Below are positions 51,670 through 56,626 of a stretch of 64,000 nucleotides of DNA, one piece after another. The position numbers and the translations under genes are program-made. Source of the DNA: the human T2T-CHM13v2.0 reference genome, Homo sapiens; assembly GCF_009914755.1 (NCBI RefSeq), contig NC_060936.1; one strand, 5' to 3'. Every line of letters begins with the position of its first letter. Position 1 is the stretch's first letter. The notes beneath the pieces are model-generated. The model was not told where the DNA came from, did not search any database, and saw nothing but the letters and a program-made list of their open reading frames with translations.

Positions 51670-51758
51670 ATATGTCTTTTTGCGTCTGTCTTCTTTCACA
51701 AGAATCATGTTTTCAAGATTCACCCACGTTGTGTGTGAAAAAAACAACAAGAAAAAAC

Positions 51759-52257
51759 AAAAACTCTACTCCCCAAATGCTCGGGAAAACTGATTTGAGT
51801 GATAATAAAACTCTGGTCTCCCACACAGCCGGCTCTGCATGAATTACTCTTTTTTGTTGTGGTGTTGTTGTTGTTGTTGTTGTTTTTGGAGACAGTCTTG
51901 CTCTGTTGCCCAGGTTGGAGTGCAGTGGTGCGATCTCGGCTCACTGCCACCTCCGGCTCCTGGGTTCAAGTGATTCTCTTGCCTCAGCCTCCAAAGTAGC
52001 TGGGACTACAGGTGTGCACTGCCATGACCGGCTAATTTTTGTATTTTCAGTAGAGGCGGGGTTTTGCCATGTTAGTTAAGCTGGTCTTGAACTCCTGACC
52101 TCAGGTGATCCACCTGCCTTGGCCTCCCAAAGTGCTGGGATTACAGACACGAGCCACCGCACCCGTCCCAATTATTCTTTCTCGATTGCAATTCCCCTGT
52201 CTCCACGAATCAGCTTTGTTTCAGCAGTGGGCAAGGTGAACCCCTTGGGCGGTTACA
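51759..52257 (+). mobile_element. LTR8 3' portion (with Alu 51852-52170 -)
   Basis: Ends in the LTR8 terminus gggcaaggtgaaccccttgggcggttaca; followed by ctac and the 3' half of a MER58-like element (52258-52357). Confidence 0.8.
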
Positions 52258-52369
52258 CTACCATTGCAGAGTGTTAAGCAGTTGCGATAGAGCCTGTGTG
52301 GCTGCAGAGCTGAAGATGTATATACTACCTGGACCTTTGCAGGAAAGGTTTACTGAAAACGTTTACTGA

Positions 52370-53995
52370 TTTTTTTTTTTTTTTTTTTTTTTTTTCTCTG
52401 TTGCCCAGGTTGGAGTGCAATGCTGCAATCTGTGCTCACTGCAACCTCCGCCTCCCAGGTTCAAAAGATTCTCCTGCCTCGGCCTCCCGAGCAGCTGGGA
52501 TTACAGGTGCCCACCACCAAACCCGGCTAATTTTTGTATTTTTAGTAGAGGCAGGGTTTCACCGTGTTGGCCAGGCTGGTCTTGAACTCCTGACCTCAGA
52601 TGATCTGCCCTCCTCGGCCTCTCAAAGTGCTGGGATTACAGGCGTGAGCCATTGTGCCCGGTTGTTTGCTGACTCTTGTCCTAGATTTTTTTTTTTTTCA
52701 GAGTGAGACAGGGTCTCACTTTGTCATGAAAGCTGGAGTGCAGTGCCACAGTCACAGCTCACTGCAGCCTTGACCTCCCAAGCTCAGGTGATCCTCCCAC
52801 TTAGCCTCCTGAGTTGGAGTGCAGTGCCACAGTCTCAGCTCTCTGCAGCCTTGACCTCCCACGCTCAAGTGATCCTCCCACTCAGCCTCCTGAGTAGTTG
52901 GGACTACAGGTGTGCACCACCATGCCTGGCTAATTTTTAATTTTTAGTAGGGACGGGGTCTTACTAAGTTGCCCAGGCTTGTCTCAAATTCCTGGGCTCA
53001 AGCAATCTGCCCAACTCAGCCTCCCAGCATGCTGGGATTACACAGGTAAACCATCACGCCAGCCTGTCCTAGATCATTAAGCAATTCGTGGGTGGACCTA
53101 GTAAATGAGGCTCCCACGTGACAGCCAAGTGTGAGCCGCATCATTGTTCACATGTTCCAGATCATTTTCCCAAACAGTGGTCACAGATAGGCGCCAAAAG
53201 CCTGGAGATGCCACCCGGATTCTCCCCTACCTGGGTGGGTTGAATCCTAGGGCAGGTCAGAGAGCTGAGAGCATGAACTTGCCTGAGTCCCCTCCAGGTG
53301 CCACAGGGAGCCTCGGCTAGATCCTCTGTGCATCTGTTATCCCCTCAGGAAAATGGGAGGGACGATAAGAAGACCTCTCAGAGGATGGGCCAGGTGTGGT
53401 AGCTCACATCTATAATCCCAGCACTTTGGGAGGCTGAGGCGGACGGATCATGAGGTCAGGAGATCGAGACCATCCTGGCTAACACGGTGAAACACCGTCT
53501 CTACTAAAAATACAAAAAATTAGCCAGGCGTGGTGGTCGGCGCCTTAGTCCCAGCTACTCGGGAGGCTGAAGCAGGAGAATGGTGTGAACCCTGGAGGCG
53601 GGGCTTGCTGTGAGCTGAGATCTCATCACTACACTCCAGCCTGGGTGACAGAGTGAGATTCCGTCTCAAAAAAAAAAAAAAAGACCTCTCAGAGGATTAA
53701 GTTAGCTGTGCCTGGTGGCTCATGCCTGTAATCCCAGCACTTCAAGAGGCCGAGGCGGGAGGATTCATTGAGTTTGGGAGTTCCAGACTAGCCTGGGCAA
53801 CATAGTGAGACCCTCATCTCCACAAAAATTAAAAAAAATAGCTGGAGTGGCGTGCGCCTGTAGTCCCAGCTGCTCAGGAGGCTGAGGTGGGAGGATCGCT
53901 GGAGTGTGGGAGGTCAAGGCTGCAGTGAGCCGAGATCATGTAACTCACTCCAGCCTGGTGACACAGGGAGAGTCTGTCAAAAAAGAGAACAAAAC
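52370..53995. mobile_element. Alu cluster (52370-52661 -, 52686-53065 - with internal duplication, 53388-53681 +, 53705-53995 +)
   Basis: Alu bodies visible; the AluY at 53388 is flanked by TSD aagacctctcagaggat. Confidence 0.88.
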
Positions 53996-54641
53996 AACGT
54001 GTAGCTCCTTTAGGAGGAGCCACACCCGCTTCCTGTCCCAAGCTGCTTCCATTCCACAGCCCAGCCCCAGAGAGCTGCAGAAGTCAGAGTTCTGATCTCC
54101 TGAAAAAATCTTTGTCCTCCACTAGGGCGCTTTAGGTAGATCTCGGAGCCACCAGGCTGGATCCTAGGGCCTCCAGCCTCTTTGTTTAAAAAAAAGGAGG
54201 GGTGGGCATGTTAGAGAAGGAAGTGGAGGAAGGGAAGCTTGGCAGCCCACCCTCACTCCTGGGGGTGCCGGAGGGGCATGAGGGAGCCACCAGGCAGGGT
54301 GGGCCTCACCCTTGGCCCTGGAGCAGGCTCCTAGCAGTGGGAGTGGGGACAGCCTGGGGCGCTCGAGGGAGGTCCTGGGCAGCTTCGGTCCTGGGTGCTC
54401 TCTGGGCCCCACCCATGTGCCCTGAGGCTCAGAAAATCTTTTGGTTGTTTTTATGCTGCTAGACAGACTCTGACCTCACACTAGGAATCCTACTCCTAGG
54501 TATTTATACAAATCACATTTGGGAAATGTTCTTAGCAGCTTCACGCATAAATAGCCCAAAGCTAGAACCAGAGAAGTCTGTGAAGAGGCAAATCAATTTT
54601 CCATCCTCCAAGGATGTAGGCTGCTCACTGGAGGTACCTAA

Positions 54642-55300
54642 GGATGGGCCTCCACTCAGCCACGGGAAAGAATGGATCCCGCTCAGCCACAGGAAAGGAT
54701 GGATCCCTCTCAGCCACATGAAAGGATGGCCCTCACTCAGCCATGGAAAAGGATGGCCCCCACTCAGCCACGAGAGAGGATGGACGCCCGCTCACCCACG
54801 GGAGAGGATGGACCCCCACTCAGCCACGGGAAGGATGGATCCTGCTCAGCCATGGGACAGGATGTCCCCTCACTCCGCCACAGGAAAGGATGGCCCCTCA
54901 CTCTGCCACGGGAAAGGATGGCCCTCCAGCCACAGAAAGGATGACCCCCACTCAGTCACAGGAAAGGATGGATCCCCCTATTCAGCCACGGGAGAGGATG
55001 CCCCCCCACCGACTCAGCCATGGGAAAGGAAGGCCCTCCATTCAGCCACAGAAAGGATGACCCCCACTCAGCCACGGCAAAGGATGGACCTCCATTCAGC
55101 CACAGAAAGGATGACCCCCACTCAGCCACGGCAAAGGATGGCCCTCCATTCAGCCACAGAAAGGATGACCCCCACTCAGCCACGGGAAAGGATGGCCCCC
55201 CACTCAGCCACGGGAAAGGATGGATCCCACTCAGCCAAGGGAGAGGATGGCCCCCCCACTCAGTCACGGGAAAGGATGGATCTCGCTCAGCCACGGGAAA
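54642..55300. repeat. ~27-28 bp minisatellite (cactcagccacgggaaaggatggcccc), ~24 copies, inside an old L1M fragment (~54470-55604 +)
   Basis: Periodic ctcagccac...aaaggatg; L1-like flanks on both sides. Confidence 0.92.
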
Positions 55301-55604
55301 CAGCCAGAGGGATGAGTGCACATGGGCCCAAACCAAGACGCAAATGAAGAGACCCGGCTGCAGAGTCCACTTCTGTGGGATTCTAGAAGATGCAAACTCA
55401 TTGATAGCCTTGAAATCAGATCACTTTTGGCCTGGGGTGGGGTTTGAATGGGAAAGAGCGGGAGATAACTTTTGGGCGATAGAAATGCTCTGTGTTGATT
55501 GGGAGTGGATAAATGGGTTTGTACGTTTGTCAAAACTCACTGAACTGAACTCTTAGAATGTGAACCTTTAATTGTATGTGGATTATACCCCCCGATAAAG
55601 TTGA

Positions 55605-55902
55605 TTTTTTTTTTTTTTTGGAGACAGACTCTAGCTCTGTTGCCAGGCTGGAGTTCAGTGGCACAATCTCGGAGCACTGCAACTTCCACCTCCCAGGTTC
55701 AAGCAATTCTCCTGCCTCAGCCTCCCTAGTGGCTGGGATTACAGGCATATGCTACCATGCCCAGCTAATTTTTTGTATTTTTAGTAGAGAGGGGGTTTCA
55801 CCGTGTTAGTCAGGATGGTCTCGATCTCCTGACCTCGTGATACACCTGCTTCAGCCTCGCAAAGTGCTGGGATTACAGGTGTGAGCCACCCGCATCCTGC
55901 AA
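55605..55902 (-). mobile_element. Alu originally inserted in LTR8 (tail split by the inversion)
   Basis: Alu body on the - strand directly abuts gggagtagagttttt (55903-55917). Confidence 0.85.
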
Positions 55903-56412
55903 GGGAGTAGAGTTTTTAAGGATAACTTGGTTGGTGGGGGGAAGCCAGTGAGCCAGGATGCTGATTGGTCAGAGATGAAATCATAGCAAGTCAAAGCTGT
56001 CTTTCCTCTTGCACTGAGTCAGTTCCTGGGTGGGGGCCACAAGATCTGACGAGCCTGTTTATCCATCTGGGTGGTGCCAGCTGATCCATCAAGTGCAGGG
56101 TCTGCAAAATATCTCAAGCGCTGATCTTAGGAGCAGTTTAGGGAGGGTCAGAATCTTGTAGCCTCCAGCTGCATGGCTCCTAAACCGTAATTTCTAATCC
56201 TGTGGCTAATGTTAGGCAAGAAGGAGGTTTGCTTTGGGAAAGGGCTGTTACCGTCTTTGTTTAAACTGTAAACTACAAGCTAAGTTTCTCCCAAAGTTAG
56301 TTCAGCCTACGCCCAGGAATGAACAAAGACAGCTTGGAGGTTAGAAGGAAGATGGAGTCGGTTAAGTTAGATCTTTCACTGTCTCAGTCATAATTTTACA
56401 AAGGCGATGTCA
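55903..56412 (-). mobile_element. LTR8 5' portion
   Basis: - strand begins TGACATCGCCTTTGTAAAATTATGACTGAGACAGTGAAAG (recalled LTR8 start); preceded on - by ctac and the 5' half of a MER58-like element (56413-56490). Confidence 0.82.
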
Positions 56413-56626
56413 GTAGCACTAAAGAAGGCAGAAACAACCAATAAACGCAGACCATGGCTTCAGGAAAACTTTATTTACAAAAGCAGGCAGTTAACATTCA
56501 GAATACATAACCAACTCCCACAACTCAACAGCAAAAAATCAAGCCACCAGATTACAAAATGGGCAAAGCACTTGAATAGGCATTTCTCCAAAGGAGATAC
56601 ACAAGTGGCCAGTAAGCACCTGCAAA

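What the first reader, a model, noticed from the sequence alone, without database searches (positions are those of the whole stretch)
51738..56490. Cryptic ~3.9-kb inversion (~51745-55604) revealed by a split MER58 > LTR8 > Alu nest
Seen: LTR8 3' part on + (51759-52257) and LTR8 5' part on - (55903-56412). The LTR's 4-bp TSD CTAC is at 52258-52261 (+) and 56413-56416 (-), each adjoining complementary halves of one MER58-like element. The 15-bp Alu TSD AAAAACTCTACTCCC (a TT/AAAA site) is at 51759-51773 (+) and 55903-55917 (-). The Alu body (55605-55902 -) lacks its 3' TSD, while a bodiless A-rich tail plus TSD sits at 51738-51773. Reverse-complementing ~51745-55604 restores MER58-CTAC-LTR8-TSD-Alu-polyA-TSD-LTR8-CTAC-MER58. 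Inference: an inversion younger than the Alu, with breakpoints in A/T runs (microhomology rather than long inverted repeats), ~70 bp from the HERV-W 5' LTR. It may be lineage-specific or polymorphic.
Basis: partly seen in the sequence, partly recalled or inferred. Interest (0 to 1): 0.8.

Follow-up and report, generated by a model that had tools for sequence, protein, structure and literature searches.

The report
Small ancient inversion between retroelement tails
A 3.86-kb stretch of repeat-rich DNA between MMP17 and ULK1 was flipped after an Alu had landed in an old retroviral LTR; the flip is real and resolved to the base, but it is an ordinary kind of event with no sign of a functional effect.

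Summary
The 15-mer AAAAACTCTACTCCC occurs exactly twice in the 64-kb window, once on each strand, against 0 expected.

- **LTR8-like halves.** Mapped onto 9 other genomic copies, the two pieces are complementary halves of one LTR. They overlap by exactly those 15 bp in 7 of 9 copies.
- **MER58-like halves.** A profile of 25 copies hits the region only twice. The two hits are complementary halves on opposite strands, meeting at CTAC.
- **Geometry.** Only reversal of window 51745-55604 (3,860 bp; CHM13 chr12:131,925,745-131,929,604) restores the nest.
- **Junctions.** Reversal also restores a continuous Alu A-tail and the T-stretch typical of the terminus of the old L1 3' end at 55604. The junctions are A7 (51738-51744) and T15 (55605-55619), a 7-nt inverted homopolymer microhomology. 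No sequence need have been lost. No long inverted repeat sits at the breakpoints.

Most likely this is a two-break inversion after the Alu insertion, rejoined through A7/T7. I could not date it or assign a lineage, because no primate genomes are held. I found it in no inversion list I could search. It is a new member of a known kind, of low to moderate interest.

The parts
43908..51669 (-). Context: degenerate gamma-retrovirus-like provirus (HERV-W by recall of its LTR). LTRs at ~43908-44683 and 50915-51669, flanked by ATAT at 43904-43907 and 51670-51673. It is inserted in an old L1 (here L1_A).
   Evidence: The LTR pair is 89% identical over 764 bp. Zinc knuckle, protease and RT/RNase H lie in minus-strand order, with MLV/XMRV RT as closest solved relatives. 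Flanks read.
51670..51737 (-). Right-hand piece of L1_A (minus strand, near the end of ORF2). It stops at the left junction. Its continuation toward the L1 3' end lies left of the provirus (43475-43907).
   Evidence: Maps to L020 ref 2059-2122, with the left flank mapping to 2126-2180 directly after it. L015 gives the same order. Scores are low.
51738..51744 (.). A7: left-junction homopolymer. It is the reverse complement of part of T15 at the right junction, so the breakpoint is ambiguous within these 7 nt.
   Evidence: Sequence. Relatives of the L1 3' end at 55604 carry a T-stretch at this position.
51745..55604 (.). The inverted segment (3,860 bp). Contents: rest of the Alu tail, Alu duplication, LTR 3' half with a nested Alu, CTAC, MER58-like 3' half with a nested Alu, three further Alus, about 750 bp of single-copy DNA, and a 5'-truncated old L1 (L1_B) with a 27-bp minisatellite.
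51745..51758 (+). CAACAAGAAAAAAC: distal part of the split Alu's A-rich tail, now separated from the Alu body.
   Evidence: Sequence. It directly precedes the duplication copy.
51759..51773 (+). 3' copy of the 15-bp Alu target-site duplication, which is also LTR sequence.
51759..52257 (+). LTR8-like solo LTR, 3' part, ending ...TTACA. It is interrupted by a separate minus-strand Alu with a T-rich tail at ~51855-52169.
   Evidence: Maps to the 3' ~165 bp of 9 other copies. Alu interval.
52258..52261 (+). CTAC: one copy of the 4-bp target duplication of the LTR.
   Evidence: Sequence. The MER58-like references hold a single copy at this point.
52258..52677 (+). MER58-like DNA-transposon 3' half, interrupted by a minus-strand Alu at ~52369-52661. 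The terminal inverted repeat ends near 52677.
   Evidence: nhmmer hit 52253-52359, model 126-229, E 2e-18. The end was read by eye.
54465..55604 (+). L1_B: last ~0.5 kb of an old L1, plus a 27-bp x 24 minisatellite at 54640-55300. It ends ...GATAAAGTTGA at the right junction.
   Evidence: Relatives of its 3' end at 70-83% identity. Minisatellite. The start coordinate is judged by eye and recall.
55605..55619 (.). T15: right-junction homopolymer. It holds L1_B's own terminal T-stretch (about 7 nt) fused to the proximal A-tail of the minus-strand Alu.
   Evidence: Sequence. In family relatives ...TTGA is followed by T(2-13) and then an A-run.
55620..55902 (-). Body of the split Alu (S-type by recall). 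It is 86% identical to a near-consensus young Alu at 57188-57469.
55903..55917 (-). 5' copy of the 15-bp Alu target-site duplication. It is preceded on the minus strand by TT, giving a TT/AAAA site.
55903..56412 (-). LTR8-like solo LTR, 5' part; begins TGACATC... on the minus strand.
   Evidence: 42 genomic matches listed at 81-100% identity, the 100% one being this locus itself. Contiguity with the 3' part.
56413..56492 (-). CTAC (56413-56416) and the MER58-like 5' half. The first ~25-45 positions of the element are missing where a plus-strand L1 (L1_R) begins.
   Evidence: nhmmer hit 56492-56413, model 49-134, E 7.5e-8. L1_R runs collinear from 56490 to beyond 61600.

Best explanation
A balanced 3,860-bp inversion of window 51745-55604 happened after an S-type Alu had inserted by ordinary target-primed reverse transcription into an LTR8-like solo LTR. 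That LTR itself sits inside a MER58-like DNA transposon.

Shown:
- The two LTR halves, the two transposon halves and the two copies of the Alu duplication lie on opposite strands.
- Each pair fits together exactly only when this segment is reversed.

Inferred ancestral plus strand: L1_A ...GTGTGTG, A7, then L1_B in reverse (TCAACTTTATC...), through to the LTR 3' half in reverse, the reverse-complement duplication copy, GTTTTTTCTTGTTG, T15, and the Alu in reverse. In that state two things look natural. The old L1 ends in ...GTTGA plus T7, as its relatives do. The Alu has one continuous tail, A15 followed by CAACAAGAAAAAAC, and then its duplication.

Inferred mechanism: one double-strand break fell in the A7:T7 tract at the L1 terminus and one in the A15:T15 tract of the Alu tail. 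The middle piece was rejoined in reverse by pairing of the complementary 3' homopolymer ends (microhomology-mediated end joining). Blunt end joining at the same points is equally possible. Nothing was lost or gained, and no long inverted repeat was involved.

Age: the event is younger than the Alu, roughly 30-40 million years at most (recalled ages of S-type Alus). It is probably fixed in humans. No functional consequence is evident.
For: - The 15-mer occurs on opposite strands only twice in 64 kb, 0 expected.
- The LTR halves are contiguous with a 15-bp overlap on 7 of 9 reference copies.
- The transposon halves cover model positions 49-134 and 126-229 on opposite strands, and are the only two hits in 6 kb. 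A single full copy, L024, shows the same.
- By the geometry of the four ends, this is the only simple inversion that rejoins the Alu body at 55620 to the tail at 51745.
- Relatives of the L1 3' end: in 4 of the 4 copies whose sequence could be followed to the terminus, and in 17 of the 17 whose alignment reached the last query position...TTGA (or a close variant) is followed by at least two T. In most it is then followed by an A-run. So an A7/T7 tract belongs at that L1 terminus.
- With that tract, the zero-loss model reproduces both present junctions letter for letter.
- All 25 longest inverted repeats in 51000-57000 are Alu-Alu pairs, and none has an arm at either junction.
- The flanks are otherwise undisturbed. 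L1_R runs collinear rightwards from 56490, and L1_A is continuous across the provirus.
- The single-copy core of the segment has no paralogue in the genome, so this is not a duplication artefact.
- No inversion at this place appears in the 41-genome table mapped to this same assembly (37 chr12 rows, none near 131.9 Mb).
Against: - No outgroup or second human haplotype could be examined, so the ancestral arrangement is inferred, not seen.
- The zero-loss model needs the old L1's poly(A) to be absent between its T-stretch and L1_A. I explain this by L1_A having inserted at the T/A boundary, but no target duplication for L1_A or L1_B could be found (best local match score 6.5, reached by 127 of 500 shuffles).
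- A 7-nt homopolymer microhomology is too common to be statistical evidence for the joining mechanism.
- The L1_A mapping rests on low-scoring alignments to two references.
- The catalogue negatives are weak. Strand-seq lists miss many events under 10 kb, the chimpanzee list is from a 2005 draft assembly, and one supplement was held only in part.
Confidence: 0.75

Rival explanations
1. The inversion and the Alu insertion were one event, a two-site version of twin priming. One nick at the LTR's TT/AAAA site primed only a short copy of the Alu RNA tail. A second nick at the T-stretch of the old L1 terminus, 3.9 kb away, primed the cDNA of the Alu body. The released middle piece was joined in reverse. 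On this reading the 15-bp and 7-bp inverted duplicates at the two junctions are the fill-in of two staggered breaks.
For: At the right junction the L1 T-stretch runs straight into poly(T) and antisense Alu, exactly as a primed cDNA would. Both breaks lie at T-runs. Both junction duplicates are inverted copies (for the 15-mer). Nothing is lost. [quoted passage not shown]
Against: It needs two priming events and four strand breaks. The second nick would fall at TTTTTTT/CAC, not the usual TTTT/AA site (recalled preference of the L1 endonuclease). The tail left at the left junction looks like the ordinary distal part of a complete Alu tail. Classical twin priming inverts the inserted element, not 3.9 kb of host DNA.
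Confidence: 0.1
2. The inversion is real and sequential but was not mediated by microhomology. Two unrelated breaks were joined by classical end joining with small losses. The A7 at the left junction is simply Alu tail, and all of T15 is Alu tail or L1 terminus.
For: Homopolymer ends cannot be assigned to one parent. No target duplications of the old L1s could be recovered to fix the ancestral junction.
Against: It requires loss of exactly the L1 T-stretch that 21 of the 21 relatives followed to their terminus carry. The zero-loss model explains both junctions without any loss.
Confidence: 0.1
3. The arrangement is an assembly error in, or a private allele of, the CHM13 genome.
For: Only this one assembly could be read. 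Homopolymers at both junctions are places where sequencing is error-prone.
Against: The junction homopolymers are 7 and 15 nt, and no long inverted repeat flanks the segment. That leaves nothing to mislead an assembler working with reads far longer than the segment (general knowledge of this assembly, not tested). A table of inversions called in 41 genomes against this same assembly has no entry here. An error or private allele should have appeared there as inverted in most samples, if events of this size were detectable; the table does hold a 4.8-kb chr12 entry.
Confidence: 0.04
4. There are two unrelated LTR fragments and two unrelated transposon fragments that happen to lie in opposite orientation.
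For: The region is dense in repeats. 17 Alu intervals were found between 43 and 64 kb.
Against: The pieces are exact complements with a 15-bp shared edge that is also the Alu duplication, and a 4-bp shared edge at CTAC. No other MER58-like hit lies in the 6 kb.
Confidence: 0.01

Closest known systems
Small evolutionary inversions between primate genomes with non-homologous or microhomology breakpoints, as listed for human versus chimpanzee in Feuk et al. 2005 (PMC1270012; Table S1 searched)
   Same: A balanced, kilobase-scale, intergenic flip with breakpoints in repeats and no large duplications.
   Different: This one is not in that list. Its ancestral state is inferred from a broken transposon nest rather than from an outgroup, and both junctions are resolved to a 7-nt homopolymer.
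Retrotransposon recombination-mediated inversion, L1-L1 or Alu-Alu (Lee et al. 2008, PMC2603318; abstract and one passage read)
   Same: Retroelements sit at both breakpoints.
   Different: That class needs a pair of inverted homologous elements and leaves chimeric elements at both ends. Here only the homopolymer tails of an Alu and an L1 are involved, the two were in the same orientation before the event, and there is no Alu body at the left junction.
L1 twin-priming inversions (10.1101/2021.12.20.472354, abstract in search listing; mechanism recalled)
   Same: A T-run 3' end next to a poly(A)-derived tract at the junction, and target duplications around the event.
   Different: Twin priming inverts part of the inserted L1 itself and is mostly under 2 kb. 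Here 3.86 kb of pre-existing host DNA is inverted, including single-copy sequence, an LTR half, a DNA-transposon half and five Alus.
Staggered-break inversions with inverted duplications at the ends, described for Drosophila (PMC1885836 appeared in a listing; the model itself is recalled, the paper was not read)
   Same: Short inverted duplicates (15 bp and 7 bp) flank the inverted segment.
   Different: The 15-bp duplicate is fully explained as an ordinary Alu target duplication split by a later break. The 7-bp one is a homopolymer.

Membership tests
Balanced two-breakpoint chromosomal inversion | Markers that were once contiguous now lie on opposite strands at the two ends of one segment | tested here: met
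   Three nested markers do so: the Alu duplication and tail versus the Alu body, the LTR halves, and the transposon halves.
Balanced two-breakpoint chromosomal inversion | Both junctions are accounted for without net gain or loss | tested here: met
   Reversal of 51745-55604 gives a continuous Alu tail and an L1 terminus typical of its family. This is an inference from one genome.
Balanced two-breakpoint chromosomal inversion | The uninverted arrangement is seen in an outgroup or another haplotype | not testable with these tools
   No primate or second human assembly is held. The own-genome search found no paralogue.
Inversion by non-allelic homologous recombination between inverted repeats | A pair of long inverted homologous repeats spanning the two breakpoints | tested here: not met
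   The 25 longest of 62 inverted pairs in 51000-57000 are Alu-Alu pairs, and none has an arm at 51738-51745 or 55604-55619.
L1 twin-priming inversion | The inverted piece is the 5' part of the newly inserted element itself, within one pair of target duplications | tested here: not met
   The inverted piece holds single-copy DNA and several unrelated older repeats.
Alu insertion by target-primed reverse transcription | Direct target duplication starting at a TT/AAAA site, with an A-rich tail between the body and the 3' duplication | tested here: met
   Met only after the segment is reversed: 15-bp duplication, TT before the 5' copy, and a tail of A15 plus CAACAAGAAAAAAC.
Solo LTR of a class I endogenous retrovirus (LTR8-like; name not verified) | TG...CA ends, a 4-bp target duplication, and many dispersed copies of the same length | tested here: met
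   TGACATC... to ...GGTTACA with CTAC on both sides. At least 40 genomic matches at 81-90% identity. The pieces sum to about 665 bp on the reference copies.
Polymorphic human inversion | Both orientations segregate among human haplotypes | tested here: inconclusive
   No entry in a 41-genome table or in the held part of a 65-genome supplement. Sensitivity at 3.9 kb is unknown and no sequences were examined.

The most novel reading that the evidence does not exclude
The Alu insertion and the inversion were one retrotransposition-coupled event. Two endonuclease nicks 3.9 kb apart, one in the LTR and one at the T-stretch of an old L1 terminus, both primed on Alu RNA poly(A), and the intervening host DNA was joined back in reverse. 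This would be a germline, host-DNA counterpart of twin priming.
Probability: 0.1. Interest if true: 0.6.

Novelty: new member of a known kind. Interest (0 to 1): 0.25.

Why it matters
It is a clean, base-resolved example of how two retroelement tails can serve as breakpoints for a balanced inversion with only a 7-nt homopolymer overlap.

It also shows that broken transposon nests can reveal inversions below the 10-kb floor used in the recent complete ape-genome survey.

The segment lies about 30 kb downstream of MMP17 and about 9.7 kb upstream of ULK1, by the gene table supplied with the finding. It flips a GC-rich single-copy block and a 27-bp minisatellite relative to both genes. I found nothing to suggest that this changes regulation, and no CTCF-like motif lies inside the segment.

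If primate comparison showed the Alu only ever together with the inversion, the locus would become evidence for retrotransposition-coupled inversion of host DNA.

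Tried and rejected
- Target duplications of the old L1 at 54465-55604 would have tied the 43.4-kb flank to the 54.4-kb flank. None was found: the best local match scored 6.5, reached by 127 of 500 shuffles.
- A first search for MER58-like copies with the 113-bp 3' half gave only one other locus. 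I used that locus as the query instead (after a busy-machine error).
- BLAST of the L1 pieces against 11 L1 reference loci was swamped by Alus and was repeated with Alus masked.
- I first read the 68-bp L1 piece at 51670-51737 as plus-strand and possibly collinear with the L1 at 54465-55604, which would have argued against the inversion. Mapping showed it is minus-strand and overlaps that L1 in reference coordinates, so the two are separate elements.
- Literature: a search for the inversion together with the neighbouring gene names gave one irrelevant paper.
- Inversion lists searched by coordinate, all without an entry here:
  - Porubsky 2023 supplements.
  - Feuk 2005 Table S1, whose only chr12 entries at 130-131 Mb are 130.29, 130.40 and 130.53 Mb. 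The old-build coordinates of this locus are recalled, not checked.
  - Gibbon Strand-seq tables (one file not searched).
  - 65-genome supplement (file cut when stored). Its only nearby row is an 80-bp insertion at chr12-131926423, reference build not checked.
- The macaque Strand-seq supplement and the ape T2T supplement could not be read, so they may hold an entry I did not see.
- Exact-match scans for the left junction in prokaryote-genome and viral contig collections, hoping for human contaminant reads, found nothing.
- A CTCF-like consensus (recalled) has 3 matches in the window with 1 mismatch, none in the segment; 1.8 expected.

Full report
**What is there.** I read window 51400-58400. 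At the left site the plus strand runs as follows:
- the end of a provirus LTR (to 51669);
- a 68-bp piece of an old L1 ending ...GTGTGTG (51737);
- A7 (51738-51744);
- CAACAAGAAAAAAC (51745-51758);
- AAAAACTCTACTCCC (51759-51773);
- LTR sequence ending ...GGTTACA (52257), then CTAC, then the 3' half of a small DNA transposon.

At the right site the plus strand runs as follows:
- the 3' end of another old L1 ending ...GATAAAGTTGA (55604);
- T15 (55605-55619);
- an Alu body in reverse (55620-55902);
- the reverse complement of the same 15-mer (55903-55917);
- LTR sequence in reverse up to its TGACATC... start (56412), then GTAG, then the 5' half of the same kind of DNA transposon in reverse (to 56492).

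The 15-mer has exactly these two matches in the 64-kb window even with one mismatch allowed. None is expected by chance.

**Are the halves really halves?** The human assembly that holds the window can be searched.
- The 510-bp LTR piece has at least 40 relatives at 81-90% identity.
- On nine of them (L002-L010) I placed the three LTR pieces of the window by BLAST. In seven the 5' piece and the first 3' piece overlap by exactly 15 positions, which is the Alu duplication. L009 agrees within clipped alignments. L004 has about 320 bp between them, most simply an insertion in that copy.
- The two 3' pieces overlap by about 11 positions around a second, unrelated Alu at ~51855-52169.
- So the pieces add up to one LTR of about 665 bp.
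- For the DNA transposon, one full copy (L024) showed both halves meeting at a single ...TTAC....
- A profile built from 25 genomic copies then gave only two hits in 51000-57000. One is on the plus strand at 52253-52359 (model 126-229, E 2e-18). The other is on the minus strand at 56492-56413 (model 49-134, E 7.5e-8). The few positions of overlap are CTAC plus a short overshoot of the alignment into the LTR end.

No repeat library was at hand to confirm them.

**Geometry.** The Alu body's tail end (left edge, 55620) and the orphan tail's proximal end (left edge, 51745) are both left edges. For a segment p..q, an inversion joins p with q+1. The same reversal puts the LTR halves and the transposon halves back together.

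**Surroundings.**
- The right flank is undisturbed. A plus-strand L1 starts at 56490 and continues collinear, through an LTR and many Alus, to beyond 61600.
- The left flank is a minus-strand L1 (L1_A) whose 3' end and short poly(T) lie near 43475.
- L1_A is interrupted by a 7.8-kb minus-strand provirus at 43908-51669. The provirus LTRs are 89% identical, and ATAT lies on both sides. It carries a zinc knuckle, protease and RT/RNase H in order, with closest solved relatives in MLV/XMRV.
- The L1_A pieces on either side of the provirus map next to each other on two L1 references, with low scores.
- I had first misread the 68-bp piece as plus-strand and possibly collinear with the L1 inside the segment, which would have spoken against the inversion. 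The mapping shows it is minus-strand and overlaps that L1 in reference coordinates, so they are two elements.
- The single-copy core of the segment has no second copy in the genome.

**The junctions.** Relatives of the L1 3' end at 55604 were collected in two searches.
- In all 4 copies whose sequence I could follow to the terminus, and in all 17 copies whose alignment reached the last query position...TTGA or a close variant is followed by two or more T. The run is mostly 4-7 T and once 13. In most copies an A-run then follows.
- That L1 therefore carried its own T-stretch. Before the inversion, when the L1 lay on the minus strand, this read as an A-stretch on the plus strand next to ...GTGTGTG.
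- If the ancestral plus strand was ...GTGTGTG, A7, TCAACTTTATC ... CTTGTTG, T15, GGAGACAG..., then reversing everything between A7 and T15 gives the present sequence letter for letter.
- The result is the same wherever the breaks are placed within the 7-nt A7/T7 overlap.
- In that ancestral state the Alu has one continuous tail (A15 plus CAACAAGAAAAAAC) followed by its duplication, and the L1 has its family-typical terminus.
- The 3' ends exposed by breaks in A7:T7 and in A15:T15 are complementary in just the way needed to join the piece in reverse at both junctions.
- None of the 25 longest inverted repeats in the region, all Alu-Alu pairs, has an arm at a junction. Homologous recombination between inverted elements is therefore excluded.

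**Weak points.**
- The old L1's poly(A) is missing between its T-stretch and L1_A. I suppose L1_A inserted at the T/A boundary, but I could find no target duplication to prove it (score no better than 127 of 500 shuffles).
- A 7-nt homopolymer overlap is not statistical evidence for the joining mechanism.
- The ancestral state is inferred from one genome.

**Rivals.**
- Single coupled event. The T-stretch of the L1 primed the Alu body's cDNA, while the LTR nick primed only a short tail. This fits the right junction well and would make the 15-bp and 7-bp inverted duplicates the fill-in of two staggered breaks. It needs two primings and an unusual nick site (recalled endonuclease preference). 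It would be refuted by any primate with the Alu in an uninverted locus. I give it about 0.1.
- Plain end joining with small losses, about 0.1.
- Assembly error or private allele, about 0.04. Nothing at the junctions could mislead an assembler, and a table of inversions called in 41 genomes against this very assembly has 37 chr12 rows, none near 131.9 Mb.
- Coincidence of unrelated fragments is excluded for practical purposes.

**Age and spread.**
- The split Alu is 86% identical to a near-consensus young Alu in the window and has S-type features (recall). The inversion is therefore at most some 30-40 million years old.
- No primate sequence is held, so I could not place it on the tree.
- It is absent from the human-chimpanzee inversion list of Feuk et al. 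2005. The only chr12 entries there at 130-131 Mb are 130.29, 130.40 and 130.53 Mb. The old-build position of this locus, about 130.9-131.0 Mb, is recalled. This weakly suggests that chimpanzee shares the human orientation.
- It is absent from the searched gibbon tables and from the held part of a 65-genome supplement.
- Two supplements could not be read.
- The complete ape-genome paper curated only inversions above 10 kb (passages read), so an event of this size would not be listed there in any case.
- Six literature searches turned up no description of this locus.

**Verdict.** This is a balanced 3.86-kb inversion, younger than the Alu, with breakpoints in the homopolymer tails of an Alu and an old L1 and a 7-nt inverted microhomology. 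It is one more member of a well-known class of small primate inversions. It lies in intergenic repeat-rich DNA with no sign of functional effect (no CTCF-like motif inside). Interest is 0.25. The one reading that would raise it, retrotransposition-coupled inversion of host DNA, can be settled by a simple alignment to other primate assemblies.

Noticed in passing
window 43908-51669 (-): A 7.8-kb degenerate gamma-retrovirus-like provirus (HERV-W by recall). Its two LTRs are 89% identical and it has a 4-bp ATAT target duplication. It is inserted in an old minus-strand L1. Only short open frames remain (zinc knuckle, protease, RT/RNase H).
   Followed up: partly
window 54640-55300: A 27-bp minisatellite, about 24 copies at 76% matches (unit AAGGATGGACCCCCACTCAGCCACGGGA), has grown inside the 3' part of the old L1 that forms the right end of the inverted segment.
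   Followed up: partly
window 52734-52895: An internal 81-bp tandem duplication (2 copies, 93% matches) lies inside the minus-strand Alu at ~52700-53062, which makes that Alu about 360 bp long.
   Followed up: no
window 52370-52395: A perfect T26 tail belongs to the Alu nested in the MER58-like element. A 65-genome supplement lists an 80-bp insertion at chr12-131926423 in linkage (r2 0.81) with a SNV at 131929053. If those are CHM13 coordinates, the insertion falls about 30 bp past this tail, inside the same Alu. The reference build was not checked.
   Followed up: no
window 56490-61650 (+): A plus-strand L1 begins abruptly inside the MER58-like element (whose first ~25-45 positions are missing) and runs collinear through another LTR (~56655-57180) and at least eight Alu intervals. 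The missing transposon end was not looked for beyond the L1 tail.
   Followed up: no
window 57188-58250: A cluster of head-to-tail young Alus, including partial right-arm repeats sharing poly(A) runs (57188-57816), looks like tandem or nested Alu insertions into each other's tails.
   Followed up: no
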